From Marsupella aquatica (Eukaryota > Plantae > Marchantiophyta), in the NCBI GenBank assembly GCA_973895155.1, contig OZ316895.1:20040803-20104802 (forward strand): a stretch of DNA of 64,000 bases, read 5' to 3'. The notes beneath the pieces were generated by a model. It worked only from the letters and a program-made list of their open reading frames with translations. It had not been told where the DNA came from and did not search any database. Positions within the stretch are counted from its first letter, which is position 1. Each line of letters begins with the position of its first letter. Shown one piece after another: positions 20,001-40,700 of this stretch. The translations under genes and the position numbers were made by a program.

Positions 20001-21369
20001 GCACGAATATTTCATTAGATCTTCACCTAATTTTTAAAAAACTTATATTAATCTGCAAGGAAAATCACCTATTGACTTCAATATATTTGTTCTCAGGTCA
20101 CATAGGGATACTCTCCATACCTCAAGGGGTCTCTTACTACATCACTCCATACCATGATAAACCTAATTATTTTCTTTAAATCAATGAGTGCACACCATAT
20201 ATTATCACATTTTGATGTGTGATTACCGGTAGGGTACCTCAAACCCTTGTACTACACCAGGCAACTGGATAAGTGCATGGAATTACTTTATGTAGTTGAA
20301 TGTTCATTGCACTAGATAATAAAAGCTTCTTATGTAGATGTTGCAATAATGGACAACTGCATTATGCACTCATAAATTTGCCATTTACAGTAGTGCTTGG
20401 AATATACACTTACAAATAGTGGTCAAAATGCAGTTCCCAAGGGAATGTTTTGGAAGATCCCAATAGTCTGCACAAATCCACTCAATGCACCTAGACAAGG
20501 TGGATTGGATGCTGCAACCTATATTCAAATTTTACAAAGAAACATACCAACAAGTTGTGGAAACTTAAATACATGTCTTAAGCCTCGCTAGTCCGACGTA
20601 GCCACTTTGGTTGGGAGCAGTTATTTTGCTACTTTCATTACGTGTATTCTCACTCCCTTGGGTAGAGCATTTTGGCATGACTACTTGGTGGATGGCTTGT
20701 TCATTGTATGCAAAATGACACTTCAAGCCTTATAAGGAAAAATTAATCCGTGGACCCCCATGTTCATCCAAGGAATGTGTGTTTGATGAAGTGAAATCAA
20801 TTTTCAACAACGCGGTAATCAACGGTTTTGGTCTCCCGATGATCTTGGTGTGTGCTCGTACAAAAGAAAACGCCCAAAAGATAGAGGAGATTTATCAACG
20901 GAAGGTTGAATATGGAGGAATTGAGTTTTTTGACGGTTTTTGCTTACACATTGGAGAAATCGTGTTTCTATTATTCATGATTGCTCGTTTGTGAGTTACA
21001 TTGAACATTACCGCCACAAGACAGACTGGAGGACAACACTTAGCTATTGGCAAAAGAGCGATTGTCGATTCGGTGGGAAGAACACACAAAACAAACAAGT
21101 CATCGCTTCACATGAAGGATTTGTAGTTTTTTTTATTTAAGAAAGCTATGGTGTGAGAGGGAGACCAACGATTGTTTCTTTGACATAGAGGCTGCATTTG
21201 GCGTCAACCTGTGTTTAGAGTGAGCTAGCTTCAGTTGAAGACTAGAGGAATGCGAACAATTCAAGCCGGGAAGCAAGCATTGTGGACAAGGGATGGCGAC
21301 GTAATCAAAAAAATCAAATTTCAACGGCTAAGTTTGTGACGGTGATGAGATTGTGATATCTCTTAATCA

Positions 21370-21870
21370 AGAAAGGGTTTCCAATGAACCTGAGATTGAC
21401 AAATTTTGTCAAGTTCCAAATGAGTTTTTGAATTTCTTTGCCTTTCCAATGAGTGTGAGTATAAGAAATATTGATCATGAGTCCATGAATTCTTTTAGCT
21501 TTAATTCCAACATTGAGTCCGACATTGACAAATTTTACGTCAGATTTTGTCACGATACTAAAGAGATCATGAGGTTTTCAATCTCTCTAGCTTTCTAATG
21601 TGTGACATTGAGATTATTCGTCAAGAATTAGAGAGATCATGAGTATCTGAATTTCTCTAGCTTTCCAATGTACCTAACATTGATAGATTTTGTCAAGTAC
21701 TAAGGAGATTATGAGTTTTTAATTTTACTTTAGCTTTCCAATGAGTGTGACATTGATAGATTTTATCAAGACAATACTAAAGAGGTCACGAGTTTCTAAA
21801 TCTTGATCTTGAGTTTTCCAATGAATCAAACATTGACAGATTTTATCAAGTACTAAGGAGATTGATTATT
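21370..21870. repeat. Degenerate tandem repeat of about 70 bp (roughly 6-7 copies)
   Basis: Recurring GACATTGA(T/C)AGATTTT(G/A)TCAAG..CTAAGGAGAT(C/T)ATGAGTTT..TAGCTTTCCAATG. Confidence 0.7.
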
Positions 21871-22638
21871 TAATTTTACAATGTGAAGCCAAAGGGGTTT
21901 TAACTATGTACATTTCTATTAGTTGGTTTTTTCAAGCTTGCAAACAATTAAAAAATACAAGCACTTTGATATAAAACACTGATATATCTTTGACAAACAT
22001 CAAAATGGTAACTTTATTTTATTAAATGACATATCTCCCTTTGTATTTTGGTTTTTTTACGTTCAATATTTATGGCATGGCGCCCCAAAAATTACGTTGC
22101 TTTTGCCACAAACAGGAATGTGCACGTTTGTTATTGTTAAAAGTAGGATCATTCCTGTTTGTGGCTGGTTGTGGTGATGTGGCACAACCTCGTGGCAGGG
22201 AATTTGCAAGAGACCTCTCATGGGGGTCCGTAAAAATGTTTTGCTAGTATAGTGTGAAGGTTTATGGTATGCCTAAAGACACCAATTCTATGGATGGCTA
22301 TGAACTGTAACCCTCCTGCCAGACTGGCCAGGGGTTACAAGAGTTTAGCCCATTGGGCTGGCACACCTGGAGTGTTATTCAATTCTGTCACAATTTTCAG
22401 GTCAAAACCAGAGAAGAACATACTCTTGGGAGGTTATGTTCATTAATCTTGGGGACCATGACTGTAAACCCCTTGGGCTCATTTGCCCATCAGGGGTTAC
22501 ATCCCATAGCCTCCTTGGGGCCATGTGTTGCCCTACATTTACACTTGCTAAAAGATATCTGCACTAGGCATCCCTAAACTGTAAACCCTTTTAAAAATAA
22601 AAAAATATCAAACTTTATAAAAATGCCGACGCGACACC

Positions 22639-22976
22639 TATAGAGGTTAACTCAGTCTTGGGTTGAACTATGGTTAGTATGTTAACTAGGGTTAGAGTAA
22701 ACCCTAGTTGAAGAGATTGGTCCTTATCTCTTCAACTTGTATGTGGTGTGTGAACACACAAGAGAGTTCTCAAGAGAGAACACAATGATACAGCAAGAGA
22801 TGAGAGCTTGAAGAGATGGGAGCTATGGTGATGCTTGAGTAGACACATAACCGTTAATAAAGCTTGGTCTTCCCGTGGACGTAGCCAACCTTGAGGCAAA
22901 CCACGTAACTATTGAGCACGTGTATGTTTGGAGTGTATTTCCTGATCTGATTTCTCCCCACAATTGGTATCAGAGC
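22639..22976 (+). mobile_element. LTR remnant (probably Ty1/copia) with tRNA-iMet primer-binding site
   Basis: LTR ends ..CCCCACA at 22962, followed by AT and TGGTATCAGAGC (22965-22976, complementary to the 3' end of tRNA-iMet). The U5-type motif CCCGTGGACGTAGCC..AACCACGTAA lies upstream. Start is approximate. Confidence 0.65.
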
Positions 22977-25697
22977 TCAGATTTTTTCAGTCGATTAGGA
23001 ACTCCATAGAACTTGCTTCAAGCAAAGCGAACAGCGGATGATTTCCTCTTCAAAGCGGAGCTATTGGAAGAAGATCTGCTGGCCCTGCCATTAGTGAAGA
23101 AACCATGCTGAAGCATTGATCCTCCAGATGAACAATCTGACCTTGGGGAAAGTCCACACTCCCCACACTTTCCTCCAACGTTCCTCCAATTCGTCTGTGG
23201 AGCCCTCTATGTCCACCTTTTGTCGAGTTTGGAGAATCTAGATCCGACACAGAGGAAGGAGTGGCCCAAACCTTGTTGGGATGGGACCAGCCATAGTTTT
23301 TCTTGTGCCAATCCCACTTCCAACTCGAGCACTGGTGCAGAGCCAGACCACCTTGAATCCTGCACCTCGAGATAGAGTCGTGAAACTGGCTAAATTCGTA
23401 ATGCCGATTTGTCTGGTGCTACGAATTTGGTTGTTCAGTTGTTCTTTCTCGATCCATTGGTTGTTGTCACCACTTAAGTCAGTGATTGACTTAATTCTCC
23501 TGTTGGCAAGGTATCTTCGGAGTTTGACCTGTTGCTCCATGAGATATCCTTATCTCTGAGATATAGTAGAGTTTGCTCAATGCTAAGGTGCAGCGGGAGT
23601 TGACTCCCTTCAAACTGGAAATTGAGCCTAAACACTACACCCGATGTTTATGGCAAAAAATAATGAATTATGAATTTGACAGTCCATAATTTTTCTATCC
23701 CTGACCTTATAAAATTATCCATCAAATTTTGTGAAAGTCCAGGAAGGTCGGAAGATTAGAAAGAAGCCTAACTGGAGTCCGATGTATAGGCTGAGTAGTA
23801 ATAGGTATGATAGGAGTTTTAGGAGCAGGTGCACTATTTTTGAACCTAGTGGTTAATCTGGTCCTCCTGGCCAATTACTGATTTTTTTTCTCTGTTTGCT
23901 CGGGCTTTCGGGCTCGTGGCCTTTGGGCTCCTTCTCGGGGCGGCCGCTGTTGCCCCGGGTGTTGGTCTGGGTTCCATCCCCTCCTACTTTTAAAATTAAA
24001 AAAATGGTCCATCATATTTGATATTTGAATCTTTGAGACCCCCATTTTCCAAGTGGGCTTCCTTTTCGTGAAGCTGCCCGGTCCCCGACTGCCCGCACCA
24101 TGAAGGGGTGGCGGTTCTGACAGAATCACACAACTGTAGCAGTTTGTACCGGTATCGGTCTTTGTTCCCAGATCACGGTGAATACGGTAGACTACGGCAC
24201 TGTGCCAGCAGTAACTTCTCTGGATACGGATTACGGAAGGAAACGGAACGAGACTGTTCCCATCTTTTTGTCATTCTCAAGGGGCGGGCAGTACCGTAAC
24301 GGGTCTGGCGTAAATACTTCGAACGGCTTGGTGGTGAAACATTTAAATTGTTACTGTTCACCAGTTCTGTATACATTATCCAATGTACTTATTACGTACC
24401 AAATTTCTAGCACAGAAGTCAATGAACGAAGGCTAAATAGGGTGTACTATCCTGCTTCGTGCAGTAAAATGGCGAAATATTAATTACTTTTATTCCAGGA
24501 AACAGCATACTGCCAAAATAGTAGAAAGCATTACGTGCTCGAATGGACCACCCAGATGAACCTTGAAACCTGGATAGACCAGGTTACTGTTGACGAGAAT
24601 GCGTGGAGCTTTTTGAAAGAAAATTTACTATATGAGTACACAATGAGTCCCCTAGTCTATGATTGTAAACTAATATGATACTCAAATAGAATATTTTATT
24701 GAATAATCTAGGATTTCTGCTGTCCATCTGGGATTTGCTTGTCCATCCAGGTCATCTTGTCAAACATTTAGGTCCATGGGGGCTTCAGTTTTCTAGAATA
24801 TCATTCTCCTTATTTACTTATTCTATTATGAAACGATTGTGCATAGGGAAGGATTTGGGAGGGATTATGCACAAACTATAGGGATTTGATGATATAATGC
24901 ATAAACTATAGGGAGGGATTTGCACAATCGTTTCATAATGCACAATCGTTTCATAATCCTTTCAGTTAGAGTACCTTTCACAGCTGAGCAACCTTTTCAC
25001 ATCTTAATGCGCCTCACTATATTCTCTATGTGATTTCAGGGCATTCATTGAGAATGTATTGTCAAGATTTGGGTGTCATTATGAAAATTCTCCTATACTT
25101 TTACAAAAAACAGGACAAACAAACAAAAACTTAAGCCTTTAAGTGTACTAAGGTGCTCTTACCTGAGCACTATGGCCCACAATAGCCTCTCATATATACC
25201 TAGCCCCTCAGGTAGTTTTCTATTTTTATTTCTATGGATGGTTTGGAGCCATAACCCTATGCCCCAGCCTGGCCAAGAGGTTATGACATTTTGACCCCCT
25301 CGCTAACCCACCCGGAGGTTATATAATTTCAAACACAAAGTTTTAATAAAAATAGAGCAAAGCTACACTCAGGGCTGTGCTTGTGAACCCATGACTACCC
25401 AAAGGGCATGCCTTCACTCCCTAGGGGATTATATCCCACAAGCCTAGCCTGACTACCTGTTCTTTGATCATAAATATAGGTGACTACAAAAAACCATGCA
25501 CTACTTTTTCTAAATTATTGACATTCATTTATGATTTGTCCCTGTTTCTTGTACCCCAAAGTTAAGTGAAGCAGGCCTACTTATGGTCAAGAGGCTTCAC
25601 TCTAGACCTAGACCATAAAAGAAATAGGTTTATATCCCAAATTACTACATTTAACTCTCACTAAGTGCGGGCTCTTGGGAAGACAGATCCGGCATGC

Positions 25698-25873
25698 TGT
25701 CGTGACATATAGTATCGTAGTCATAGTGTATCAAAAACATACAAGTTACCGGCAAGGCATATGTGCAAGCTGCTAGCAACCAACATGCATAGAAAAAGTC
25801 CAATCACATTCACAAGTGCCAAGAAAAAGCAAATGAAGTGGTATGTACGTAGTGGAGGTGTAAACCTCTGTAT
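25698..25873 (-). repeat. Repeat A, terminal copy (176 bp)
   Basis: Matches 26235-26410 with 4 substitutions by eye count. Confidence 0.95.
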
Positions 25874-26232
25874 ATAAAAGGCGTAAGAAAAACAATTGTA
25901 TTGAAATCAAATCAAAAACCGGCAGGATGCCAAGATCGGCCGGGAGCATCTAACGAATCACTGTGTGAATCCCGTGTACGGAACCGACGAGCACTGTCTG
26001 AGCTCTGTCAACAGCGATTCAAGAAGAACTGAAAAACCCACAAAGAAATACATGCCCTAAGCAAGCAAAGTCCTGGCATCACACTAACAAGCACATTTGC
26101 TTCAAGAATGGCCCAGACTTGCTACAAGAACATGTCGCTAACTCAGGTAGTACACTAGCCCTAACTACATACCTAGCGGGCAGGCAAGGGACATGCCGAT
26201 GTGCATAAGAGACACTGTCCCTCGGCATGACA
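25874..26232 (-). repeat. Repeat B, 3' copy (359 bp)
   Basis: Matches 35158-35516 with about 11 substitutions by eye count. Confidence 0.95.
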
Positions 26233-26234
26233 GC

Positions 26235-26410
26235 TATCGTGACATATAGTATCGTAGCCATAGTGTATCAAAAACATACAAGTCACCGGCAAGGCATATG
26301 TGCAAGCTGCTAGCAACCAAAATGCATAGAAAAAGTCCAATCACATTCACAAGTGCCAAGAAAAAGCAAATGAAGTGGTATGTACGTAGTGGAGGTGTAA
26401 ACCTCTGTAT
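26235..26410 (-). repeat. Repeat A, inner copy (176 bp)
   Basis: Direct repeat of 25698-25873, separated from B by GC at 26233-34. Confidence 0.95.
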
Positions 26411-26418
26411 CCCCCCCC
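26411..26418 (-). other. Putative polypurine tract (G8) for plus-strand priming
   Basis: C8 on the + strand directly abuts the inner A repeat, about 30 nt after the integrase stop codon. Confidence 0.6.
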
Positions 26419-26450
26419 AGACCACAGCCACAAGGAGGGCTGAAGAAAAT

Positions 26451-27770
26451 TCAGGTAGCACGTGGAGCACAAGAAGGGCAAAACCATAACCCTTCTGGCA
26501 CCTGGGTAAGTTCAGGCCAAAGGCAGAAAAGATGGTACCCTCCATTGCAATTGTCACACAGCAGCATCTGGTCAGCATCATCAATTCGCAAACACACCTT
26601 GCAAGGGTAGTCCACAGGTGGAATCCAAGTAGAAGTCACAATGGTGGGATCTAGGTTAGGCAGATGACAAGGGGCGCAATTCTTGGCATTGTCAGCAATT
26701 GTGCGCCCATCTGCCCCTTGTAACTCTAGCACTCCAGACGGTCGAATAGCTTTAACCCTGAGAATAGTTCGACTGGTAGAGGTGTCCAGGGTGTCGTTAG
26801 CTTGCCGCTGCAAGTACACAAAATCTCCCACATCAAACTTCCTGACCTTGGGCTGAAAAGTGCCCCCTCGTGTGTGTGCATAACGCAGTGTGTCCCTGTG
26901 CTGTGCAATGGCCAAATTCTCCATGGCCATGGGCATAACCCTCCTGAATAGGGCAGCCCTCTCAGAGATCACATCAGACCAAGTCACAGCTGAATCCAAG
27001 TCCACCACCTGAAGCATGTGAGCAGCAATAGCAGAAGGTGGAACTGGGTGACGACCAAACAACAAGAAGTAGGGAGAAAAGTTAGACAGTGATGCATGTC
27101 TGGACATCCTATACCCCATGGCAATGTAGGGTAAGGCCAGGTCCCAATCCTCCTTGTTTTTGGTGAGGCAGATCTTTCGGAGACCCTTCTTGCATGTCTA
27201 AACCATGCGCTCTGCCAAGCCATCTGCCTGTGGGTGATCTCGTGATGTCCGGCGATGATCAATGAGGGCCTGATCAAGTAGCTCCTGGAACTCTCCTCTA
27301 AACTCTGAGCCCTGGTCAGTGAGACATTCTGCACAAGCTCCAAAGCGGCTGAGAACTTGTTGTAGGAATGTCTGGCTGGTGCTACGGGAGGTCTTATCCG
27401 GCAATGCCACAAGTTCTATCCACTTGGAGAAATGCTCTATCATGATCATGATGTAGAGATTACCCTGAGATGTGAGGGGTAATTCTCCAGCCAAATCACA
27501 TGACCAGCGATAAAACATGCCCTGAATAGGGAGTGGATGAAGTGTGGGTTGCCGAGATATGAAAGAAGTCCTCACCCTATCACACTGTTCACACCGGGCA
27601 ATAACATCTCGAACCTGGCCATGCATGCCTCTCCAATGATAATGAGGGACCAAGAGGCTGTAAGTCCTCTTAACGCCAAAATGACCAAGCTCAGAATGTA
27701 CCTTACGGATAAGGCCAACCCTCTCATGAATGGGTGGAACCACCACTTCCCTGTCTGGCAAGCAGCGCAC
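26451..27770 (-). pseudogene. Integrase (HHCC Zn finger, DDE core, SH3-like region, C-terminal PHD finger) with one in-frame TAG at 27198-27200
   Basis: HSELGH..CEQC; SCDLAG, TDQGSEF and AERMV provide D,D,E; reading continues in frame ERMV*TCKKGLRK. PHD C4HC3: CKVC..LLCDNC..YHLFC..WFCPSC (26469-26603). Confidence 0.93.
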
Positions 27771-27785
27771 GAGATGATCTCCCTT

Positions 27786-29330
27786 TCACAAGTAGCGCTT
27801 GGACCTTTGCTGAATTTGGTCTCTCTGGGCAGTAGTAACATGTGTGGGTAACTCCCCATGCTGCAGAAATCTCAGAGTGTCGCTGTCCTCCCATATGTCC
27901 ACCACAGGTTGGTCAACAACATAGCATGGCAGCAAAGCAAGATAGGTCGATGCATGAAATGTAGGCAAGATGGAAACCTGGTCAAAATCTTGCCGTGCAT
28001 CTGAGGAATCATCAGAGGTAATCAAAGGGCTGCGGGACATAGTGTCAGCATTCTGATGTGTCACACCAGGCCTATGAGTTACCTCAAAATCATACTCCTG
28101 GAGTATGAGCGCCCAACGAGCAAGCTTGCCAGTAAGCTTGTCGTTGGTCATCAACCACTTCAAGGGCTGGTGGTCGGTGTAGAGAACAAACCTGGTCCCA
28201 TAGAGGTAGGGCCTATAATGTATGACAGCCCACACAACAGCAAGGCATTCACCCTCATAAGAAGAATAATGACTCTCTGCCTGATTGTTGCTCCTGGATG
28301 CATAGGCAATGACGTACTCTTTACCTTCCTCATCATGCTGGCCCAAAATGGCACCAATCCCAAGGGCACTCCAATCTGTGTGTAGCACAAAGACCTTGTT
28401 GAAATCAGGTCTTCTCAGCACCGGGTATTCTGAGAGCTTCTCCTTCAAAGTGGCAAATGCTGCCTCAGCATCTGTACTCCATGTCCAAGTCACATTCTTT
28501 TTCAACAAAGCATACAATGGGTGTGCAATGGTACTGAAATCTTTGATGTAGATCCAGTAGTAATTGCACAACCCAATAAAACTCCTCAAAGTGCGAACAT
28601 CGATAGGAGTGGGCATTTCCAAGATGGATACCACCTTGGCCCAGTGAGCCATGGTTCCATTTGGAAGAATGCGGTGCCCAAGGTATACTACTGATCTGAC
28701 AGCAAATTCACACTTCTTGGGGTGTATCTTTAGGTTCACCTTCTTAAGCCTCATGAATAGCTCCTCAAGGTCAAGTAGATGCTGGTCAAATCCTTTGCTG
28801 TGGACCAACACATCATCAATGTAGCGTTTCAGAAACTCAGCACCTTGAAGAACCTGGTCCATGACTCTTTGAAAGAATATGGGCGCATTCTTCAAGCCAA
28901 ATGGCATCACCAACCACTCCCATAGTTGGTTACTACCATGGAAAGCTATTTTCTTGCGGTCCTTTGCAAGCAGCAAAATCTGGTTAAAGCCTTGCCTTAG
29001 ATCCACAAGAGTGAAGATGTCTGAGTCTCCAATGCTGTCAAATAGCTCCTCTGGCCGTGGCATGGGGTACCTGTCCTGGGGTGTGACCAGGTTCAGTGGC
29101 CTGTAGTCCCCACACATGCGCTTCTCTGTCCACAATCCACTGGAATCCTTCTTTGCTGGCATCACTGTAGCTGCTGCAAAATCTGATGTAGATGGCTGAA
29201 TAAGACCAGCTTCATAGAGCTCTTGGCATCTCTCATCCACTAGCTGTCACTCATGCTTACTCAAACGGTGTCTCCGCCTGAAGATAGGTGTTTCATCAGC
29301 CAACTCAATGGAGAACTGCATAGTCTTGCA
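27786..29330 (-). pseudogene. Reverse transcriptase plus RNase H of the gypsy pol, with in-frame TGA codons at 29247 and 27786
   Basis: RMCGDYRPLN, DLRQGFNQI, MPFGLKNAP, YIDD; RNase H motifs TDWS..GAIL, YEGECLAVVWA, TDHQPL, NADTMSR. Both stops lie in conserved in-frame context (HE*QLVDE, RYL*KGDHL). Confidence 0.95.
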
Positions 29331-29784
29331 CTTACCCAAGTCCTTCATAGAGAAAGCAAACACATTCTCATGCTTGAGGAGCAAATTCAGCAGCTGGTCC
29401 TTCTGTCTTTTACTCAGGTGGTTGCCCATGATGAATGTGTAGTTGGCAACACTAGGAATAGGACCTGATGTACTCGTGCTTGAAGAGCCAGAAGTGCCAG
29501 CCTCTCCACTGTCCAAGCTACTAGCATGCTGCTGATAAGGTGATGAGGCCTCTCCAAGGCCTGCTGTATCTGTTGCTCTGGTCTGATCCACACCATGAAA
29601 CTCAGAAATAATGTCAGCCACATTACAAGGGACCTCCTCCCCCCTAACACTTGGACTGAAGTGGTGAGTGTTGGACAGAGGTAAGTGCACCTGGTCTGGA
29701 TGCCATGTAGCAGCACCATGGAGTGGTAGGGCTGGCACTCCTGATGCTGGATGAATGTACATCTGAAAAAGGATGCAAGTGACC

Positions 29785-30725
29785 AGAAGCCAAGTGAGAG
29801 CATTAAGATCCATTACCTTGCCAAGTAAAGCAGTCCTGGCTAGCCTGGTGATTTTGGTGTGACCTGTAGTACCGGGTTGGAAGCCCATAGCCCGTTCTCT
29901 CTCCTCAGGACTAGGTTCATCCCATGTACCGATAGAATGTCGATAAACCAGGCCAGAACCATCACCCTGAAAAGCATGTGCACCTGGAAAGGACACAAAA
30001 GTAGGCCAAGCAGCACGGGGCTGTCCAATGGTATTAGCTGGATACCAAGGTGCTGGCTCTTGCCGTGTAACCGGTTGGCAAGAACTGTCAGGATCCAAAA
30101 TCTGGTCCACTGTGAGGTTAGTGTCCCTAGATGTGTGGTGAAGAGCTAACTCCAACAAGGAAGGTGGTGCAATGTTAGTCCAAAAGTTACGAAGACGATG
30201 TGCATAAGAACCACAGTGCATTGCATCAATGAGAAGGGGTGGTCCCAAGTAGTGTTGGACCACACTGAAATCCTCTTTGACCTGTGGACGCTGGTCAAAC
30301 TGAGATGGAGTATTCTCAATGATATAACCAACAGCAGGATAAAGGGATTGAGCCCAGGTGAGAATCTGAACCAATGCTGTGAAAAGGCCAGAACGAGAAT
30401 CATGCAGTCCAGCACCGTGACCAGCAGCTGAAAACCCTTGGCATTCCCAACCAGCTATGATCAAATCAAGGGAGCCAAGAAGGGTTAAGTGCCAGTGCTG
30501 GACAAGCTGGATGTCTGGAGGGAAGAAAGAAAATGCAGACTTCCATGCACTATGTGGAAACTGCTGGGGAAATCGCTCGGAAAATTCCAGCAGACGGGAT
30601 TCAGCCACTTGCCTTGCACTTGGATCAATGTCCACGTAGATGTACTGCTTCACCACCATGCCAGACTGTAGGAGAGCTTCCAGGCCTGTAGAAATGCCAC
30701 CAAAAAGCTCAATCAATGTAAGGCC
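29785..30725 (-). CDS. DNMT3-like C5 cytosine DNA methyltransferase domain embedded in pol between protease and RT
   Basis: Ordered motifs I (ELFGGISTG), II (YVDID), III (DIQ), IV (DLIIAGWECQGFS), VI (IIENT), VIII (AHRLRNFWTN), IX (EERERAMGF) and X (RLARTALLGK). No stop or frameshift within the domain. Confidence 0.92.
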
Positions 30726-31079
30726 ATCTAAAAGAGGAGTCCATTTAACTGGTGCGCTCAAGATTGGGGCTATTGGCTGTCCATTGTGCTGCCCAAGGTC
30801 TTCAAACTTGCGCAATGCAGCCACCAAAGGTCCATGGGCTGCTTGGAGCTGTTGTACCACCTCTGGTTGATGATCCACGTTGCTGGAAAGTGCTGCTATA
30901 CGTGCAGCAGCATGTGCAGCAGCCACCTCATCGTCATCCTCCTCAATCCAATCTTGCAATGGGTGGTTGACATAGGTAGCTGTGTGCACTGCTTTCAACA
31001 CACAGTGGTGAGCCATAGGTATATGGGCACCATGCAAATCAAGTGGAATGTAGCCCAAGTGTGAGCCATCAGTATGCCA

Positions 31080-31430
31080 ATCAACTCTGTAGTATGCATG
31101 CTCATGCCAGTTGTCAATGGTAAAACCTGGTGGGAACAAAGCCTCCTGGCCAATGAGCACATCATACGTAGTGGCATTGGTAACCAAACATCTGACTGGG
31201 AAATGCAGTTCCTGATCTGTACCTCCATTAAAAGTGAGAGTGAGTAAAGTAGAACTCTCACCCAGCACATCCTCCACAGTGCCACTAGCAGCCCGAATGT
31301 GCCACTTGGATTGCTGTAAATGATCAGTCAACAGTCCCATCTTCTTGGCAAACTGAATGCCCAATATCACTGGTTGAGCACCTGTGTCTAGCATGACCAC
31401 CTGAGGAGTGTGACCCTCCAACTTGACCAC
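31080..31430 (-). CDS. Retropepsin-like aspartic protease domain (part of ORF 31985-29247)
   Basis: VMLDTGAQPVIL active site, IRAASG flap region and YDVLIGQEAL. Confidence 0.85.
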
Positions 31431-32039
31431 TGAATTCCTGTTGTCAACAATGGCAATGGTGGTGGAAACTGAAGTCCTGTCAATAGGCACCACTCTCGGC
31501 AAATGATGAGGTACCTTGTGAAGGGAGTTAGTGTCCACGGTCTTTCCACTCAACAACATAGCCAGGAAAGATGGAGCAGCATGACCAGAATCAAGTGTAG
31601 CTCTGGTCACACAATCAGCAGCAATCGGTATTGGGGCAGCCAAACCAGTGGAAACATGTAAAGGAGAAGAAAAAGGTCCAGTATGTACATGAGATTGGAC
31701 CTCCAAAACCGGTGTCACAGGGGTTGATGAAGAATGCAGTGAGCCCTCTAGCGCTCTAATGATAGCTCTAGCATCCAGCTGTAAATCATGGCAACTGAAA
31801 AGTGGAGTTGTAAGAATCCTTTGTGCCATACCGGAGGTGAAATGCTCAAGCAGCTCAGGAGAAACAACTCCCTGTGAAATGTTAGCAGCACCTGGTGGTG
31901 GAATGGATGTAGCTGCAGCTCCCTCCCCCCTCGCCAACAAGGTGCGCTCTTCAGCAAGTGTGAGTGGCTGAAAAGATTGGGGCATGACAGCCCGAGCGCC
32001 CCTGGCTCTAGTCAGAGGACCGGCAGCAAGACCATCAGC

Positions 32040-33581
32040 CTATACAATGCGGCGTGTGGGAGCAATACGGGAGGCAGCACTGGCCTGCTGGTAAGCAAAA
32101 CAGGAAGGGCAGAATGAATCTGAAAATTCTGCTGTAAGGCCAGGCTGTGGAGCAGAGGACAGCACACACTCACCCATATGAGCATCAAATGGTAAGCCAT
32201 AGAAAGAGCGGGGTAGAGGTGCTGAACTGTCAGCGGTGCCTGGGCCAGGGATGGGTTGCACGTGACCAGCCGGTTGAGAAGGACCAGCAGAGGCAGTGGA
32301 CTTGCCTTTGATGTTGGCAAGTTGGGCACGTAAGGACTCAACCTCATGAGTCAGAGACTGGAGTTGAGTTGCCTGTGCGTTATGAGCCTCCTTCTGAGCT
32401 GGTTGCTTCTGTGGCTGCTTGGGCAATTTGTTAGCACCGGGTGCTTTGCCACTGGAAGGAGGAGCAATGGATGTAGTAGGAGCCCTCCTAGCTGGGGGGG
32501 GAGTGGAAGCAGGAGCAGGATGAGGGGCCTGCTGTCGTAGCCGCTTCCGCTCTGGGAATTTGGCAAAACAAACTGCCTCCAAGTGACCCACTTTCCCGCA
32601 AAAATCACAAGACAGGTCCTCAGCAACAATATCACACTCATTAGCCTTATGATTGGGGTTACCACAGTAGTTGCAAGATGGCAGCATGAAAGCAGCATGG
32701 GCTGGCTTGGTCTTGGAACCATACTGTGGCACACGAGAAGGAGTGGCCAGTGTAGGGGTAGCAGCCTGGTACCTGGATTGCGGTGGACGCGCAATATTGG
32801 CCTCATAATGTGCATGGGCCAACTCAAGTTTCTCAGCAGTGTCATAGACATTGAGCAGGGTGTAGCTGTCTCCAAACTCTGAGAATACTTGCTGCAACAC
32901 TTGCGAATGGAGAGCTGGTGTGCCCTCCAATGCGCGAAGATAGCGATGAGCAGCCTCCAGGTCAGTGATGCTCTGGGTGTCCTCCTTCAGCTTGAGAAGC
33001 CGGCGATACATCATCTTCAAGGTTTCATCGCGCTGCCTCACAAAGGTGGCCAACTGCATGATTGTGTCAGCACTCTTGATTGGGAATTCCAATTCAAGAA
33101 CCTGGAAAAACTCAGCCACTGGATCAGCAAAGGCAGGGGAATCAATGGTGGGAGAAATGCCTGATGTAGCCTGTGCCAAGATAGTGGGAGTAACGGGCGC
33201 AGTGGTAGGAACTGGAGTAGGAGGGGAAGTGGCAGGAGCAGCAGCATGGGCTGCAATGGCATTCTGTAAGGCCAATTGTGAGGCTGCCGCAATTGCACTG
33301 GCATAGGTAGGGTTAGGCAACTGTGTGACAGCAAGCAGCCGTTGAGAATGCTGCTCATACACATCCAAAGCCTCATGGTGCACATACCTGGCTAGCTGCT
33401 TAAATGCAAAAGCATTTGTGAAATTGCTGCCGTACTTCAACTCCAATGCGTAAACGATAGTGTAGAAAGTGGATTTGAACTCACGTAAAGAGACAGTGCC
33501 TGGCCGCCCGCTGAAGCGCTCAATGCGGCCAGATGAGTGGTTGGCATCCATGCTGTATGTCGGTGAAGCAGGAACAACCAC
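32040..33581 (-). CDS. Gag with two CCHC zinc knuckles, in frame with pol across a single TAG; may originally have started at ATG 33817 (frameshift near 33600)
   Basis: IERFSG capsid-like start; CNYCGNPNHKANEC and CDFCGKVGHLEAVC knuckles; Pro/Ala-rich linker. After the TAG, 18 sense codons lead in frame to ATG 31985. Confidence 0.85.
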   Translation of the reverse strand: MVVPASPTYSMDANHSSGRIERFSGRPGTVSLREFKSTFYTIVYALELKYGSNFTNAFAFKQLARYVHHEALDVYEQHSQRLLAVTQLPNPTYASAIAAASQLALQNAIAAHAAAPATSPPTPVPTTAPVTPTILAQATSGISPTIDSPAFADPVAEFFQVLELEFPIKSADTIMQLATFVRQRDETLKMMYRRLLKLKEDTQSITDLEAAHRYLRALEGTPALHSQVLQQVFSEFGDSYTLLNVYDTAEKLELAHAHYEANIARPPQSRYQAATPTLATPSRVPQYGSKTKPAHAAFMLPSCNYCGNPNHKANECDIVAEDLSCDFCGKVGHLEAVCFAKFPERKRLRQQAPHPAPASTPPPARRAPTTSIAPPSSGKAPGANKLPKQPQKQPAQKEAHNAQATQLQSLTHEVESLRAQLANIKGKSTASAGPSQPAGHVQPIPGPGTADSSAPLPRSFYGLPFDAHMGECVLSSAPQPGLTAEFSDSFCPSCFAYQQASAASRIAPTRRIV

Positions 33582-34254
33582 GGATGCAGAAGGGGTAAAA
33601 ATGGCAATGAAGTGATAGCAGGCTTCGGGGTAGTGGTGAAGCGACCACCAAATGTAGCAGAAGGATTGCGTGGTGTGGGTGCTGCTGTTGTCTGCTGACG
33701 TTGCTGAAATTTCCGAGACTCCAATGAAATTGGCACCAATGGTCGTGGATCACTCCGTAAATGGTACCTGGGTGTCGGTGGTGATGTGCTGCTACCTCCT
33801 GGCTCGTCTGCTGACATGCTGTGTGGCAGTACCCGATGTACTCAGGTAATGTACAAAATGTATAAACATGTTGAAGAACCGTCAACCTCAAAAATCCGTC
33901 AGAGAAAAAGGACCCTTAAAAACGTGAAGACATTGGGTGCCCACTTAATTAAGTGTATAAACACGGGGCCCCGTTAAGTGTATACGTCGGGCCCCGATGT
34001 GGACCCGGGAACTAGCAAGCTCGACGGAAAAAAGGCCGGGCGCGCGTCGGCAGTGAAATCGTCCTCACGGGAACCGGCCGAGTGTGTAAACACACCCAGG
34101 GCACGGCACCCTATGCACAGCCCAAGGAGGCCCTATGCAGGTCGTTGTGAGGCGGAAGGAAAGACGACGGCCGAAAAGAAAAGAGAGGCGGATTACGAGG
34201 CGGAAAGGAGGCGAGGCGGGAGGCGAGGCAAAAGAAACCTGGCCAAACCGGGCC

Positions 34255-34660
34255 CTCTTAATGGCATGAGCCCTCCATAGGGCTTCGTGCCCCACCTTAT
34301 GTGCTCCCGAAAAGGGGCTACGAACATACTCCCCCCTCCTCTCCTGCAATGCAATTTGGGCCTCGTGCCCTGGCAGAAGACTCCCGTGAGAGGAGTCAAG
34401 TGTACTCCCCCCTCTTCAATGCTGACAGTGGGCTCCGTGCCCTGCAGGGGGACTCCTGAAGAAGGGAGTCGTGTGTGAACTCCCCTCCCCCTCCTTTTAA
34501 TTGCTGCTTAGGGCCTCGTGCCCTCTCCTGCGCTCCTGCCTTGGTTTCGTCTCCCCCTGCTTTAATGCTGCTTCGTGCCCTGCAGGAGACTCCCCCTGCT
34601 TTAATGTGTACTCCCCTCCCCTCCTCTTAATGCGCCATAGGGCCTCGTGCCCTCCATCCT
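34255..34660. repeat. Degenerate tandem repeats in the retroelement 5' leader
   Basis: About 6 copies of GGG(C/T)(C/T)CGTGCCC interspersed with CTCCCCCTC..TTAAT. Confidence 0.65.
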
Positions 34661-35145
34661 CTCTCGCTTATGCTCGGCCACGGCAGGAAGCAAAACGAAG
34701 GAATAGCGAGGCGACGAGGCAAAAAAAAGAGGAGTAAGAAAGGCAGAAAGAAAAGGGGTGTGCGGCCCTATGCCGTTGGGAAGTAGCGCGCAGTGGCCTA
34801 GGCAGTCCGGTGGTGGTCGCGCGGCAGCCGTGGCCGGGAAATGGCCATAAAAGCTAACGAAAAAGGGGCCCCAAACTCCCAAAGGGTTGCGAGTGAGGGC
34901 GCAGCGGCCTGTGCAATCGGCAGCAAGTCGTCGATGTAGGTCACAAAGAAGGTTGCGGCCGGAAAAAAAACCCGGGCCCCTTGTTATTTGTATACACTTA
35001 AGTATACAGTATACACATAACACCACAATAAACCCATAACTTTTAACTCGTCACTCCGATGTCCGTCAAAGAAATTGCAATGGCTTCACCAGAAAGTGTC
35101 GAAATCGTCACAAACAATCTTCTTCCCCTCACCACTATCTCGACG

Positions 35146-35157
35146 AGTTCTTCTTGA
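35146..35157 (-). promoter_or_regulatory. Putative self-priming PBS (Tf1-like), complementary to the predicted transcript 5' end at 35314
   Basis: 35146-35159 AGTTCTTCTTGAAT is a perfect 14-bp inverted repeat of 35301-35314 ATTCAAGAAGAACT and abuts the end of repeat B. No TGG-starting tRNA PBS at this position. Confidence 0.7.
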
Positions 35158-35516
35158 ATAAAAGGCGTAAGAGAAACAATTGTATTGAAATCGAATCGAA
35201 AACCGGCAGGATGCCAAGATCGGCCGGGAGCATCTAACGAATCACTGTGTGAATCCCGTGTATGGAACCGACGAGCACTGTCTGAGCTCTGTCAACAGCG
35301 ATTCAAGAAGAACTGAAAAAACCACAAAGAAAGACATGCCCTAAGCAAGCAAAGTCCTGGCGTCACACTAACAAGCACATTTGCTTCAAGAACGGCCCAG
35401 ACTTGCTACAAGAACATGTCGCTAACTCAGGTAGTACACTAGCCCTAACTACATACCTAGTGGGCAGGCGAGGGACATGCCGATGTGCATAAGAGGCACT
35501 GTCCCTCGGCATGACA
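35158..35516 (-). repeat. Repeat B, 5' terminal copy (359 bp)
   Basis: Direct repeat of 25874-26232; not followed by repeat A. Confidence 0.95.
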
Positions 35517-37748
35517 ATGCACTAAACCAGGTGGTGCGTTCCTTGATAAGTTAGCACACACCCCCTAAAACGTGCACTTATTGATATGGGCTGCTCTATC
35601 AGTGAGTAGCCCCTTACCTCATATCCCTGCCCTCATTCTTTACTCTACTAAGAATGGGTAATCCTGCATTTATTAGTAAAATGCTATTTCATGGCTTTGT
35701 GCTTTTACCCATAAGAGCAGACATACACTTATTGAGGGTAAGCGCTTATGAAGTTGTCTTTTAGGAAAATGATTGAAGCCCTGTGTGCGCTTACAACATA
35801 CGCTTAAAAAGCACTTATCCCGTGTTAGAAAATAGAGTAGGAGAGGATGCCCTGGGCTAATCAAGGGTAAGCGCTTATGGAGTCTGAGCTTAGACAGAGC
35901 CCACTATAGTAAGATAACCCCCTTTGGACCGTGGTTTACATTAATCTAACCCATTCGATGGGTTGGGGTACCTTTCACAACCTGAGGTATGGGATGCTTT
36001 CTGTTCCCTCCACTCCGTTCCTGGTTTAGACAGAGCTCGAGATTGAAACTCCGTGAAATGAGAGCTTGGACAATTCGGGATGCATCAAATTCAAGCAGCG
36101 AATCGTTGAAATTGGAGAGAGAGAGCATGGGAAATTGGAATGGAGATGGAGGCGACAGTTTATGGTTGGGAGGCGCCAGATAGACAGACGGAAACATCAG
36201 TTCGACTACGGAGCTGGGGAATTTTGGTTGTGAGTGATTCTAATGTGCGGCCCGATTGAAGTTTGGAGGTCCTTGAAGAAAGGGTTTCACATACAGGTAC
36301 TAAAATTGGATCATCGTCGAGAATTGCTTGTAGTTGGGAGTGAGCTAGAGGTGCTCCTTTCTTCCCCTTGTGCACCATCATTCTTGAGACCCACAACTGG
36401 ATGACTAGATAGACCCACAGCTGAATGAATAAGTAGTCGAAATTCTGGATGCAGTTTGCAACCACTCGCTCGTCAGCATTGCCGCCCAAGCTTCGTAGTG
36501 TCATTTCTTACTGACCTTGGGTCTGCTGCTGAGCTGAGCTGGTCTTGTTCTCTGAGCTGGTCTTGTTCTCATTGAACTACTTTCATCAGCTGATTTACGG
36601 GCCTCACAAGCCAAAGCCAAATCTATGAATGAATATTTTTCAAGACTTTTATCGCTAGTTGGCTTTCCATCCCCTCGCTTCAATATGAGCACTTCAAGCG
36701 TATGGGCAGAAGATTCTATTTTTCTGCAATGGGTGAGATAGGAAGGACCAATATCTCGAGACCTACCAGATACCATGGGTCGCCCACCCGTGTGGACACT
36801 AAGCCCTCTGGTAGACTGGGGTATGAAGCCCTGAAGTACCCTGTAGTCGGAATTCTCGCTGACGGACTACGATCGTGTCAACAGAAGCTCGAGACAGCTA
36901 TCCCTTGCTTGAACAGACGAAACTGAATGTTTAAGGTTCAATCAAATTCTATGTAAATTGGGTGGTTTTAAAAGTCGTTGACCTTTCGAAAAGTGAGCTT
37001 CTTTGGTGGAATTTTAGTTCCCGAGACAACCGCCCTGGGTAAGAGGCCGAAGTCCAAGATAATCTCTTACTGTACGCACAATCAAACCTAATGATCAGAC
37101 AGGTAGAATGTCCTTCAATCTCGAACACTAGTGGGACCAAAGAATTACTTAGCGCTGTGAACTCTAACTTGTCCTCGTTCTTGAACATGCTGGATAGTGG
37201 GACCACAAACCCTCCTTCTGACTCTAAAAGCGCATAGCTCTGAATTGGGCCAATCTCGCTCTTCATCACCAGTGAGTTATTAATGTTCGGTGAAGTACAG
37301 CGTAAAGTGAAGCGCGGAAGAAATGCTCATCTGTACTTTCGCAAAAGAAGATGGGTTACTAGAGTATCCTTTAGATTTGGTCAGGTTTCAACCAAAGCAA
37401 AGATCTTGCCGTTCTCTCAAAACAAGACTCCGCACGCGTTTAATTGATTTTGAATTTAAAGTACATGATTACGAAAAATCTGAAGGAAAGCTGGTGTACC
37501 AATATGTTTTCATCACCTCTTCAGTTTTTGCAGTTTTTGCAATTTTTGGTTTTGGTTTTGGTTTGGACTGTGTCAATTTTGCTCGAGGAGTACTGCATGG
37601 TTTGGTTGCGGTGAGACAGCAGATTGAGACTGATGCGGTGTAACTCCAACTTTTGTGCACATTGTCAGGACGGAATCGAATTCAGGTGTTGTGGCTCTTT
37701 TTGGTAGTTGGTACGGACCCTGTTCGCCGGATTTCTGAGCCCCTAGTC

Positions 37749-40700
37749 ATGAAGGAGCAATATGATTACCTATCCTTGGGGCAGGCAGTTCTGCGCAAAG
37801 GAGAGGAAGTTAACTTTTACGGTGCTGTTAGCGAGTACGAGCATCCGAAACCAACTCGTGGCTCAGGTGAGCTAAGTTTATTCGCTTTTTAATTTGAAGT
37901 AGTCCACATTGGATGGGTCTTCAGGTCTGTTTTGCGCTCTCATGCTCTTCATGTTTCTACATTGCTTAATATTCTTATTGCGACCCTGGTTTTCTTGCTT
38001 TAAACCCTAAAACCTTTAAACTTTTGATAGGCTTCTTGTCAACAGCTTAATGATTTCTGTTGCAACATAAGTCTAGGACTGTTCAGGGCTAGATGAGCTG
38101 AGAGAGTGTCGAGGTCAGTGTATGCATTATCAAGGCTTTGTTATGGCGCCACATCGAACTCGTGGACGCTTTGAGCTTATATTGACTAATTCATCGAAAC
38201 AATTCCCGACAGATGTGATCTGTACCATGAGTGTGGTGGACATGACCTACGACAATCCTGGCTTGAGGTTACTAATCTTTGCATCAGCAGCGAATTGCCC
38301 ACTAGTCAAGTCTATTGGTGATATAATTCGAGTCCATCGGGTTGAGGTGAGGCAGTCACGATGAACAGACTCTTTGCAATCTGATATGTTCCTAGAGCAG
38401 TGCTTTCGAACCCCTTTGTGTGAACAGAACGGCGTTTAATGCCGTGTAAAAACCTCAGTATATGCGTAGCTTAGCGGGATTGTTCTTCCTATATATCCCC
38501 CATCTATAGCCTTATGCGGTTTGCAACGAGATACCTCTGCCTAGCTCCTGAGGATTTACTGGACAGAGGCGTTAGTCATATTTTGCAAACGCAGGTTTTG
38601 TCTCTCTTCTAAAACTTGAGCAAGAAAGCTAGGTAGTCGTTCAGGGTGTCTTCGTCCATTGTCTGAAAAGGCAGAAGGCTCTTGCCCTGCATTCAGGAAG
38701 GACCTGTCTATCAGGCTGCCATCTTCCGGAAATGAGTGCCGGCCTTGCTGGATGCCGGTCAAGGATGTCTCTTGCTCTCTTTCTACTTGATAGCTAGTCT
38801 CTTGATTTGCCCTGTGGATTCCAATCCCATGGCCTATTTAGGTCTCTGTGGAATTTAAAATAATGAAATTGGTTCATTCATCCTTCCTGACGATGGAAGA
38901 AAAGATTTTACCGTTTTGTTAGTTCCGTCCGTCCAAGTCTACCCTGACTAGAGTTTGTCTCGTGTCAGAAGGAAGATGTCACCTGAGGTGTCTCCTTGTT
39001 AACGCATGGCTGAAACTAGAAATGAAGAACCACACATATATTGAATAGCGTCTTTGCTCAATTTCTGCTATATGTTCTTATTTAATTTGGGGAGATTTTT
39101 GACAGATGGGAGACTACAAGGGAGAGCCGCAGGCAATTGCTAAAATCAGCCGGAAGTCTTCCTACATCCTATTTCAGGGAAAGAATGGAAACGGTTATGA
39201 ACCCTACCAAAAAGCACATGGTACATTCTCGTTTGAGCCACATGATGAACAAAGAGTTGACGTCATGCGGAAGTGGATCGAATCTCATCCTCTGTACACG
39301 CGTGAGTTTACTTGACCCTACTGTACTTATTTGAATAGAAGAAAACTTCTCAGCTTCCTAGTTCTCAATCGAAATGATTCCCTTTAGCTTGTTGTAGCAC
39401 CAAGCATTCCACTGTTACGTATTAACAGAAGAGAAAGGTTTGATGACGGAACTAGGGTAATGAAACATATTCTGATTGGGCTTGTTTGGACCTTGGTCAA
39501 CTGATCGTTTTTCTTTGCACTTTTCAGGCGTAAGCGATTATTTAGTTCCTATAAGTGGAATTAAGGATTGCTCTTATTTTGATTTGTGCTGTAAGGTGCA
39601 AGATCTAGCTTTGACACCTGTTACTCCTTGAATGCTTAAATTTAAGTCAAATGTGAGAATTGAGAACGAGGCGGGATGAGTAATTGTGTGCCCAGACTAA
39701 ACAACCTTACACGCTCAGATATAATGTTGTCAGGATACCCAAGGAAGTAGAGTAACTCACCCTTCGCTGGAATCATCGCCAGATCCTTTATGTGGTGGAA
39801 AGAACACCAGAGCACTCCACCATAATCTACGTTTGGGATGGCACTGATGCAGTGCCGAGATTCATATCAATACTGTATGTTTGTTCTTAACTGGCTACTC
39901 ACATAATTCTTCGCTGCATTTTATTTTGAGCTTATGGGATAGAGTCTTACCAATCTTTGAGATACGCTGACCTCCTGCGCTACCTTTTGTTCAACTTGAC
40001 TTTGGCCCTCGTCACTCCTTACAATTTGTCTCGCTTGTATGTAGCAAACCAGAAACAGATGAAGATTTTGAATCGGAAGCAATTTGCACAAATGGTTATC
40101 CACAATCTCTCCTGCCCAGAGATGTACTTTGCGACCTCCCCCCATTGGGTACTGTGCTACCCATCATACAAGAGATCCAGTTGGACGATCTACCCGGACA
40201 ACTGCCCCAGTGTGGTGATTGGGTGAAGTTTCGGAATCTTGCATGTCGCAGTCGAGCAGGCATATCAGAAGCAGTATTTAGGCGTGAGAGCAAAATTAGC
40301 CTTCTCTCAAAAGACACTCAATTGGTTAAGAACTGTGAAAGGTACGCTCTTCCCTGCATCTAGTCTTGCTCTTGACAAAAGAATCAAGTTTAAGGATAGT
40401 TGGTAAGAGGAGCTTTATCAACCTCCAAGCCTTCAAAATCATAGTGCTTGCTTGACATTGTGGCTCTCCAGAATGCTCATGAAAGCCCACAGCCCTTGAC
40501 TTATGGTTGCAGTCTTTATGAAGTACGGATCCTTTCAGAGCAGGGCCGCCTTCCACAATCATCTCCGCAGCCTCCACAGTTATTGCAGTCATTGACAGGT
40601 AGGCCTTGAATATAGAGTGGGGAAATTGCTGCTAATATGACGATGCAGTAGAAGGTTCTGATCCTACTTTGTTCCCATTCCAGTGACAGACTATGAGCAT

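What the first reader, a model, noticed from the sequence alone, without database searches (positions are those of the whole stretch)
29785..30725. DNMT3-like cytosine methyltransferase built into the Pol polyprotein between protease and RT
Seen: the major C5-MTase motifs occur in order, in frame with PR and RT and without disruption. Segments closely resemble DNMT3 catalytic domains (LFGGISTG vs LFDGIATG; AHRLRNFWTN vs AHRARYFWGN; TRLARTALLG vs SRLARQRLLG). Known: retrotransposon-encoded DNMTs were reported in dinoflagellates and charophytes (de Mendoza et al. 2018) and proposed to methylate retrotranscribed DNA. Inference: the neighbouring genes indicate a land plant, so this extends the system to embryophytes. 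The enzyme would be packaged with RT and could methylate the cDNA or circle before integration.
Basis: partly seen in the sequence, partly recalled or inferred. Interest (0 to 1): 0.86.

Follow-up and report, generated by a model that had tools for sequence, protein, structure and literature searches.

The report
Liverwort retrotransposon carrying DNMT3-like methyltransferase
This is a broken copy of a repeated liverwort jumping gene whose family keeps a DNMT3-like DNA-methylase domain inside its enzyme chain, with relatives from green algae to mosses; the domain likely methylates the element's new DNA copies, and its split end repeats suggest that each copy is likely closed into a ring and reopened at an internal palindrome before it inserts.

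Summary
The domain is real: a complete C5-methyltransferase (PF00145 above cut-off; AlphaFold model closest to DNMT3A/B) lies in frame between protease and RT of a Gypsy-type element (25698-35516, minus strand) in a leafy liverwort near Calypogeia. This copy is dead: four in-frame stops, one just after the domain. Catalytic residues are present, and dN/dS against a sister family is about 0.08, like RT and integrase. Activity is unshown, and phage methylases fit the family profile as well as human DNMT3A, so a host-DNMT3 origin is not established. It matches the known KnitGypsy-Dnmt3 kind, including DIRS-like split repeats; relatives occur in Marchantia, Calypogeia, Sphagnum, Closterium and chlorophytes, so this is an old green-plant lineage, not a fresh capture. 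The more surprising part is the repeat anatomy (B-internal-A-B-A): a self-priming site with compensatory changes, a polypurine tract, an apparently end-joined B|A junction, TG..CA ends from an internal CA-GC-TG palindrome, and 4-bp target duplications. These point to integrase opening a 2-LTR circle internally (inferred; the missing mirror-image product is unexplained). This scan has reported the same family and idea many times, in this genome and others.

The parts
25698..35516 (-). Whole element, TG...CA termini, order B1 - internal - A1 - B2 - A2
   Evidence: other copies end at the same two points with unrelated flanks
35517..35520 (.). 4-bp target-site duplication ATGC (partner at 25694-25697)
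   Evidence: 4-bp duplications in related loci
25694..25697 (.). 4-bp target-site duplication ATGC (partner at 35517-35520)
35158..35516 (-). Repeat B1 (359 bp), 5' end of the element; 11 differences from B2
35303..35314 (-). Predicted self-primer and transcript 5' end, 12 nt (14 with the last two bases of B1) complementary to the PBS
   Evidence: 2 of 20000 mononucleotide shuffles hold the 12-mer; two compensatory changes in the sister family; function inferred
35146..35157 (-). Predicted primer-binding site directly after B1, not of the tRNA TGG type
32043..33551 (-). gag with CCHC zinc knuckles; followed by a stop that most other copies lack
   Evidence: (zf-CCHC 17.6 bits, below cut-off)
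31137..31427 (-). Aspartic protease (LDTGA at 31391)
   Evidence: (27.2 bits, just below cut-off 28.2)
29787..30725 (-). DNMT3-like C5-cytosine methyltransferase domain: catalytic Cys at 30443, Glu at 30317, Arg at 30197 and 30191; motif IV reads ECQ instead of PCQ
28668..29129 (-). Reverse transcriptase core (YIDD at 28823), cut off from the upstream frame by the stop at 29247-29249
28092..28406 (-). RNase H
27201..27785 (-). Integrase H2C2 and DDE core (D 27497, D 27317, E 27212), bracketed by stops
26469..26603 (-). PHD finger at the end of Pol; nearest solved relatives WSTF, CHD4, KDM5, ATXR5, BAZ2B
26411..26418 (-). Polypurine tract (G8) abutting the start of A1
   Evidence: same position in all 24 related 3' ends printed
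26235..26410 (-). Repeat A1 (176 bp)
26226..26241 (-). A1|B2 junction: the two termini back to back with a 2-nt GC spacer (internal att palindrome; one base differs in this copy)
   Evidence: CA-GC-TG read directly in L015
25874..26232 (-). Repeat B2 (359 bp)
25698..25873 (-). Repeat A2 (176 bp), 3' end; B2|A2 at 25874/25873 joins the PBS-defined end to the PPT-defined end

Best explanation
This is a dead copy of a Gypsy-Dnmt3 retrotransposon whose Gag-Pol carries a conserved DNMT3-like methyltransferase that, in working copies, likely travels in the particle with RT and integrase and likely methylates the new cDNA, which is predicted to be closed into a 2-LTR circle and reopened by integrase at a palindrome inside the LTR. 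Steps. (1) Shown: one frame gag-PR-MTase-RT-RH-IN-PHD; split repeats B-int-A-B-A; TG..CA ends; 4-bp duplication. (2) Inferred: the functional LTR is A+B. The transcript starts near 35314, folds back on the PBS and self-primes as Tf1 does; the plus strand starts at the PPT; ordinary LTR reverse transcription gives linear AB-int-AB whose ends lack TG/CA. (3) Inferred: the two ends are joined (B|A), and integrase makes a 2-nt staggered cut in CA-GC-TG of the 5' LTR, which yields two recessed CA-3' ends like processed retroviral ends, then inserts them with a 4-bp duplication. (4) Inferred, least supported: the MTase methylates the duplex cDNA or circle, probably at CG, so that new copies enter the genome already methylated; the PHD finger would steer integration by reading histone H3 tails.
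For: MTase: fold (pLDDT 95) closest to DNMT3B/3A (Z 29.0/28.1, rmsd 2.6/2.4; M.MpeI 25.2, HhaI 22.9; Foldseek). Catalytic Cys kept in 79 of 80 related loci although 78 of those 80 carry stops in the domain. Window versus loci dN/dS, medians: MT 0.079 (55 of 80 unsaturated), PR 0.097, RT 0.061, RH 0.094, IN 0.069. Sister copies carry the domain at the depth of PR and RT. MTase and RT trees both split PR-MT-RT from RT-RH-MT-IN elements (SH-aLRT 99 on 55 of 89 rows; 100 on 35 of 69 rows), so domain and element have travelled together. Route: PBS and primer differ from the sister family at two positions on both sides and stay paired; PPT abuts A in every 3' end printed; B|A is exact in the window and 8 of 11 loci, lacks 2 nt at an AT microhomology in two loci that are not sisters (L027, L065) and has a one-base difference in L006, as end-joining would leave; the A|B spacer is GC or a transition product of it in 12 of 12 loci; 4-bp duplication perfect in 8 of 13 loci, one mismatch in 3 (L046 read by eye). 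Retroviral integrases can cut palindromic LTR junctions internally (PMC1905944, PMC4372172; abstracts).
Against: No activity data; the Klebsormidium homologue was inactive in yeast (inconclusive per authors). CpG depletion of the coding region (o/e 0.28) is not specific: a transposase-like stretch in the same window has 0.34. This copy has Val at motif X (29816), seen in 0 of 80 relatives, so it may itself be damaged. A 2-LTR circle has two equal palindromes, yet 0 of 26 readable 5' ends show B-A-B while 11 of 24 3' ends show A-B-A (Fisher p 7e-5): the model needs an unexplained bias. 13 of 24 3' ends have a single A; one (L028) shares its site with an A-B-A copy (L013), so these can arise later, but direct trimming of linear cDNA is not excluded. 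dS to the sister family is near saturation, so ratios are rough; among the decayed loci MT dN/dS is 0.38, like the other domains.
Confidence: 0.55

Rival explanations
1. The MTase fold is kept for a non-catalytic or narrow job, such as binding the cDNA or marking one of the two att palindromes so that integrase cuts only the 5' one, not for general cDNA methylation.
For: Motif IV has ECQ for PCQ in most of the family (72 of 80 loci); Klebsormidium domain inactive in yeast; the 0/26 versus 11/24 asymmetry asks for some mark; the palindrome and termini hold CHG and CG sites.
Against: SAM-binding and all catalytic residues are conserved; Marchantia members keep PCQ; the domain is found in two different Pol positions, which fits a free-acting enzyme.
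Confidence: 0.2
2. The split repeats are copied from the RNA, as usually proposed for PAT/Ngaro-type elements (model recalled): the transcript runs through A2, so B|A is templated and no end-joined 2-LTR circle is needed.
For: Same A-ORF-B-A-B layout as tyrosine-recombinase elements (PMC6681497 passages; PMC5890265); explains why B-A-B 5' ends are absent; B|A is exact in most copies.
Against: PPT and PBS sit exactly at the two halves of the B|A junction and are conserved, the PBS with compensatory changes; non-sister loci share a microhomology deletion there; no recombinase found; 4-bp duplications are present.
Confidence: 0.2
3. The domain is a neutral passenger or a chance host-gene insertion in this copy.
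For: This copy and nearly all related loci are broken.
Against: Same position in all related loci with neighbouring domains in view; dN/dS about 0.08; relatives from chlorophytes to bryophytes.
Confidence: 0.03

Closest known systems
KnitGypsy-Dnmt3 of Klebsormidium nitens (de Mendoza et al. 2018, PMC5890265; called 'streptophyte Gypsy-DNMT3' in bioRxiv 10.64898/2026.05.21.726589)
   Same: Dnmt3-type domain inside the Pol ORF of a Gypsy element; DIRS-like repeat structure with Gypsy domains (Fig. 4c legend); conserved catalytic residues; purifying selection.
   Different: Host is a liverwort, with relatives in mosses, Closterium and chlorophytes. PBS, PPT, internal palindrome, TSD and an integration route are not described in the parts I read. 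I could not see Fig. 4c, so domain position and PHD were not compared, and no K. nitens sequence was named among my hits.
SymbioDIRS-Dnmt3 and PAT/Ngaro/VIPER split-repeat elements
   Same: A-ORF-B-A-B repeats; DNMT3 in Pol (SymbioDIRS, active on CG in yeast).
   Different: They integrate with a tyrosine recombinase; here a DDE integrase, TG..CA ends and a 4-bp duplication.
Tf1/Sushi and Tcn1 chromoviruses (PMC6317226, PMC4600332 passages)
   Same: Self-priming PBS complementary to a site in the 5' LTR; Gypsy domain order.
   Different: No chromodomain here but a PHD finger; no MTase or split repeats reported for them in the passages read; RT placement against REXdb lineages not tested.
HIV-1 and foamy-virus integrase cleavage of 2-LTR circle junctions (PMC1905944, PMC4372172 abstracts; PMC1180852 listing only)
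   Same: Integrase cuts a palindromic att junction inside DNA, and circles can feed integration.
   Different: There the palindrome is the end-to-end junction and the route is a side path; here it lies in the middle of the LTR and would be the main route.
DNMT3A/B/C and phage DNMT3-like methylases
   Same: Fold and motif order; profile scores 80.7 bits (DNMT3A) and 63-79 bits (four phage enzymes).
   Different: Only 18-29% identity to either; no PWWP or ADD; not circularly permuted as DRM2.

Membership tests
Gypsy-Dnmt3 (KnitGypsy-Dnmt3 kind) | Gypsy domain order PR-RT-RH-IN with DDE integrase | tested here: met
Gypsy-Dnmt3 (KnitGypsy-Dnmt3 kind) | Intronless Dnmt3-type domain inside the Pol frame | tested here: met
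Gypsy-Dnmt3 (KnitGypsy-Dnmt3 kind) | DIRS-like split repeats | tested here: met
   11 distinct related loci with A-B-A 3' ends
Gypsy-Dnmt3 (KnitGypsy-Dnmt3 kind) | Catalytic residues conserved, purifying selection on the DNMT | tested here: met
Gypsy-Dnmt3 (KnitGypsy-Dnmt3 kind) | One clade with the K. nitens sequences; same domain position | not testable with these tools
   no named K. nitens retro-DNMT among hits; figure not held; Closterium falls on the same side of the tree as the window
DNMT3 family | C5-MTase fold nearest to DNMT3, motifs not permuted as in DRM | tested here: met
DNMT3 family | Descent from eukaryotic host DNMT3 rather than from phage or bacterial DNMT3-like enzymes | tested here: inconclusive
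   same profile: DNMT3A 80.7 bits, phage enzymes 78.7, 76.5, 75.7, 62.7; no host DNMT3 sequence was in hand for a tree
DNMT3 family | De novo cytosine methylation activity | not testable with these tools
   needs an assay
DIRS/PAT/Ngaro tyrosine-recombinase elements | Tyrosine recombinase gene | tested here: not met
   none in the main frame or the 8 other ORFs of 120 aa or more inside the element; DDE integrase present
DIRS/PAT/Ngaro tyrosine-recombinase elements | Split direct repeats | tested here: met
Chromovirus (Tcn1, Tf1/Sushi) | Chromodomain at the end of integrase | tested here: not met
   PHD finger, no chromodomain at E<=0.1
Chromovirus (Tcn1, Tf1/Sushi) | Self-priming PBS | tested here: met
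   sequence complementarity with compensatory changes; priming itself not assayed
Chromovirus (Tcn1, Tf1/Sushi) | RT-RH-IN placement in the clade | not tested
   no reference lineage sequences in hand

The most novel reading that the evidence does not exclude
An ancient green-plant lineage of DDE-integrase retrotransposons, from chlorophytes to liverworts and mosses, replicates by a route not established for any LTR element: it self-primes, end-joins its cDNA into an obligatory 2-LTR circle, methylates that circle with its own DNMT3-like enzyme, and integrates by cutting a palindromic att site inside the LTR, with methylation possibly choosing which of the two palindromes is cut.
Probability: 0.35. 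Interest if true: 0.8.

Novelty: new member of a known kind. Interest (0 to 1): 0.5.

Why it matters
Retrotransposon DNMTs were described in an alga and in dinoflagellates, where genetics is hard and their role is open. Relatives in Marchantia polymorpha (annotated gag-PR-MTase proteins) put the question in a tractable land plant. Annotators should also know that these domains inflate DNMT3 counts in bryophyte genomes and that LTR finders will miss such elements. If the circle route holds, 2-LTR circles, usually seen as dead ends, are the normal precursor for a whole DDE-integrase lineage, and the odd DIRS-like repeats noted in 2018 get an explanation.

Tried and rejected
No whole genome was held, so copies could not be counted; contig depth (about 110,000 over the element against about 100 in the flank of run X1) shows a large repeat family but is no copy number. 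No RNA holder was listed among 13 runs: no evidence on expression either way. Recent horizontal transfer between the liverwort and the Sphagnum-like family: rejected, pS is 0.64-0.74, near saturation; an old transfer or old paralogous lineages remain possible because Calypogeia groups with the Sphagnum-like family, not with Marchantia. Cluster look-up named no host for the metagenome relatives; their tie to Sphagnum rests on 77-98% protein identity of P0001, P0007 and P0059 to named Sphagnum proteins. Reading the repeats as a one-off deletion plus duplication: rejected, the layout recurs at independent sites. A 2-bp duplication with GC as part of the end: rejected, other copies end at TG with variable neighbours. 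A programmed gag stop: rejected, relatives read through. CpG depletion as a sign of self-methylation: not specific. Motif VIII conservation in the loci is not counted as evidence because the scan pattern was drawn from it. Literature searches for a land-plant report or for this route found only the 2018 paper and later one-line mentions of 'streptophytes'; subscription papers, Repbase reports and bioRxiv supplements were not searchable, and the 2018 supplementary figures were not among the term hits. No complex prediction was run.

Full report
Observation. One minus-strand frame, 33551 to 26451, encodes gag (CCHC), protease, a 313-aa methyltransferase, RT, RNase H, integrase and a PHD finger. 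The methyltransferase (29787-30725) passes PF00145 (29.7 bits, cut-off 22); its 17 PDB sequence hits are DNMT3A or 3C. The domain is whole, but the polyprotein is not: stops lie at 32040, 29247, 27786 and 27198. At two of them (27786, 32042) nearly all contig depth in four runs reads another letter (the table shows only 40 of over 1100 differences), so this copy decayed after insertion. The repeat pairs differ at 15 of 537 positions (K2P 0.029), 7 of them at CG.

Host. The BTB/POZ-MATH exon at 45778-46182 is 99% identical to Calypogeia fissa, 93% to Riccia and 87-88% to mosses, and intron-split POT1-like exons lie nearby. The host is a leafy liverwort at or near Calypogeia. The element's flanks are bridged by contigs in runs X1, X2 and X3, so it is a genomic insertion.

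The enzyme. The AlphaFold model (pLDDT 95.3) matches DNMT3B and DNMT3A best (Z 29.0 and 28.1), ahead of M.MpeI (25.2), HhaI (22.9), DNMT2, DNMT1, DNMT5 and CMT (Foldseek agrees). The catalytic Cys, Glu and two Arg align with those of DNMT3A. In 80 related loci, 78 of which have stops in this domain, the Cys is kept in 79, Glu in 61 and the two Arg in 64 and 73, most changes being transition-type. Against these loci the window's dN/dS is 0.079 for the methyltransferase and 0.06-0.10 for PR, RT, RH and IN; dS is close to saturation, so the figures are rough. Two cautions. And no activity is shown; the Klebsormidium domain did not methylate yeast DNA, which the authors call inconclusive.

Range. 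Named relatives are in Calypogeia (68-78%), Sphagnum, Marchantia (36-43%), Closterium, Haematococcus, Chlamydomonas eustigma, Chromochloris and Monoraphidium. Of 199 proteins with a near-whole domain, 23 have it before RT, 121 after RT/RNase H and before integrase, 55 could not be placed. Both the methyltransferase tree (55 of 89 rows) and the RT tree (35 of 69 rows) split these two orders cleanly; named members are streptophytes on one side and chlorophytes on the other. The trees are unrooted, so one capture followed by a move, or two captures from related donors, both remain open.

Repeats. In sense order the element reads B1 (359 bp), internal part, A1 (176), GC, B2, A2, with TG..CA ends and ATGC on both sides. 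Other copies end at the same points with unrelated flanks: 8, 13 and 8 contigs at the B start in X1, X3, X4 and 6, 8 and 7 at the A end in X2, X3, X4. The sister family shows the same layout, with 4-bp duplications perfect in 8 of 13 distinct loci, one mismatch in 3, two in 1 and none in 1. de Mendoza et al. noted that KnitGypsy-Dnmt3 has DIRS repeats with Gypsy domains but give no route in the parts I read.

How it likely replicates. A G-rich tract abuts the start of A, and the 12 bases after B1 are complementary to a site 157 nt upstream in B. In the sister family PBS and partner both differ from the window at two positions and still pair; among 29 loci, 7 match perfectly as scored and most others have 1-2 transition mismatches, while control 12-mers average over 4 mismatches. 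This is the pattern of Tf1-type self-priming. Ordinary LTR reverse transcription would then give AB-internal-AB, with ends at the PPT and PBS and no TG/CA. The TG and CA termini sit back to back inside the LTR as CA-GC-TG, and the PPT end and PBS end are found joined at B2|A2. Opening an end-joined circle at the 5' palindrome gives exactly B-internal-A-B-A. B|A is exact in 8 of 11 loci, but two non-sister loci lack 2 nt at an AT microhomology and one differs by a base, whereas the PPT|A junction does not vary. A 2-nt staggered cut of the palindrome gives two recessed CA ends; retroviral integrases can make such internal cuts (abstracts). Against the simple model: the mirror product B-A-B-internal-A was seen in 0 of 26 5' ends, against 11 of 24 A-B-A 3' ends. 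The 13 single-A ends can be secondary (L028 shares its site with A-B-A locus L013), by recombination or assembly collapse. The PHD finger resembles those of WSTF, CHD4, KDM5 PHD1, ATXR5 and BAZ2B, which I recall as readers of unmethylated H3K4; PHD-bearing Gypsy elements are known in Chlamydomonas.

What was read. PMC5890265: parts 1-4 of 7 and two supplement term searches, figures not seen. bioRxiv 10.64898/2026.05.21.726589: part 1 of 5 and passages. bioRxiv 10.1101/2022.06.16.496473: passages and section 17. PMC4372172, PMC1905944: abstracts. PMC6317226, PMC6681497, PMC4600332, PMC12344493, PMC6453930: passages. PMC1180852: listing only. Searches found no land-plant report and no description of this route; two later papers say only 'streptophytes'.

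Verdict. A real, conserved DNMT3-like domain in a dead liverwort copy of the known Gypsy-Dnmt3 kind: a new member with a wider range than published in what I could search. The inferred internal-palindrome route is the more novel part, well constrained by sequence but untested and with one unexplained asymmetry. My reading was written down before I saw earlier notes; searches show that this scan has reached the same family and idea many times in this genome and others, which is not independent support.

Noticed in passing
window 34280-34943: The 5' untranslated part has short C-rich tandem repeats and far lower contig depth than the rest of the element (about 1,800 against 110,000 in X1): it varies strongly among copies; related loci also have tandem repeats here.
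   Followed up: no
window 21000-23000: A second high-copy repeat with 70-80 bp degenerate units, at contig depth like the retrotransposon in X1, X2 and X4; not identified.
   Followed up: no
window 3931-5465 and 51315-51665: Long imperfect inverted repeats (65-81% complementary): possible foldback elements or hairpin RNA loci.
   Followed up: no
window 39900-41200 and 43591-46206: Host genes: POT1-like OB-fold exons and a BTB/POZ-MATH gene.
   Followed up: partly
window 54510-55845 and 61253-61984: Broken ORFs without Pfam match; by recalled motifs a phosphotransferase-like gene and a Harbinger-like transposase.
   Followed up: no
L013 and L028: Same insertion site, one with A-B-A and one with a single A, about 9% apart: loss of B-A after insertion, or an assembly collapse.
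   Followed up: yes
L043, L023, L030, L049, L051: Tandem, nested or head-to-head neighbours of the same family; may reflect insertion into own copies.
   Followed up: no
P0388 (Calypogeia fissa): A second Calypogeia family, 78% identical to the window's methyltransferase, with an uninterrupted gag-PR-MTase-partial RT protein.
   Followed up: partly
P0003, P0005, P0010, P0011, P0014 (Marchantia): Annotated as hypothetical proteins ending after the methyltransferase, with PCQ at motif IV where printed; their gene ids gave no paper hit.
   Followed up: partly
runs X1-X5, X11, X13: Near-identical words of the element occur under five organism labels; only A, B and C were laid, and C lacks most of the repeats and flanks.
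   Followed up: partly
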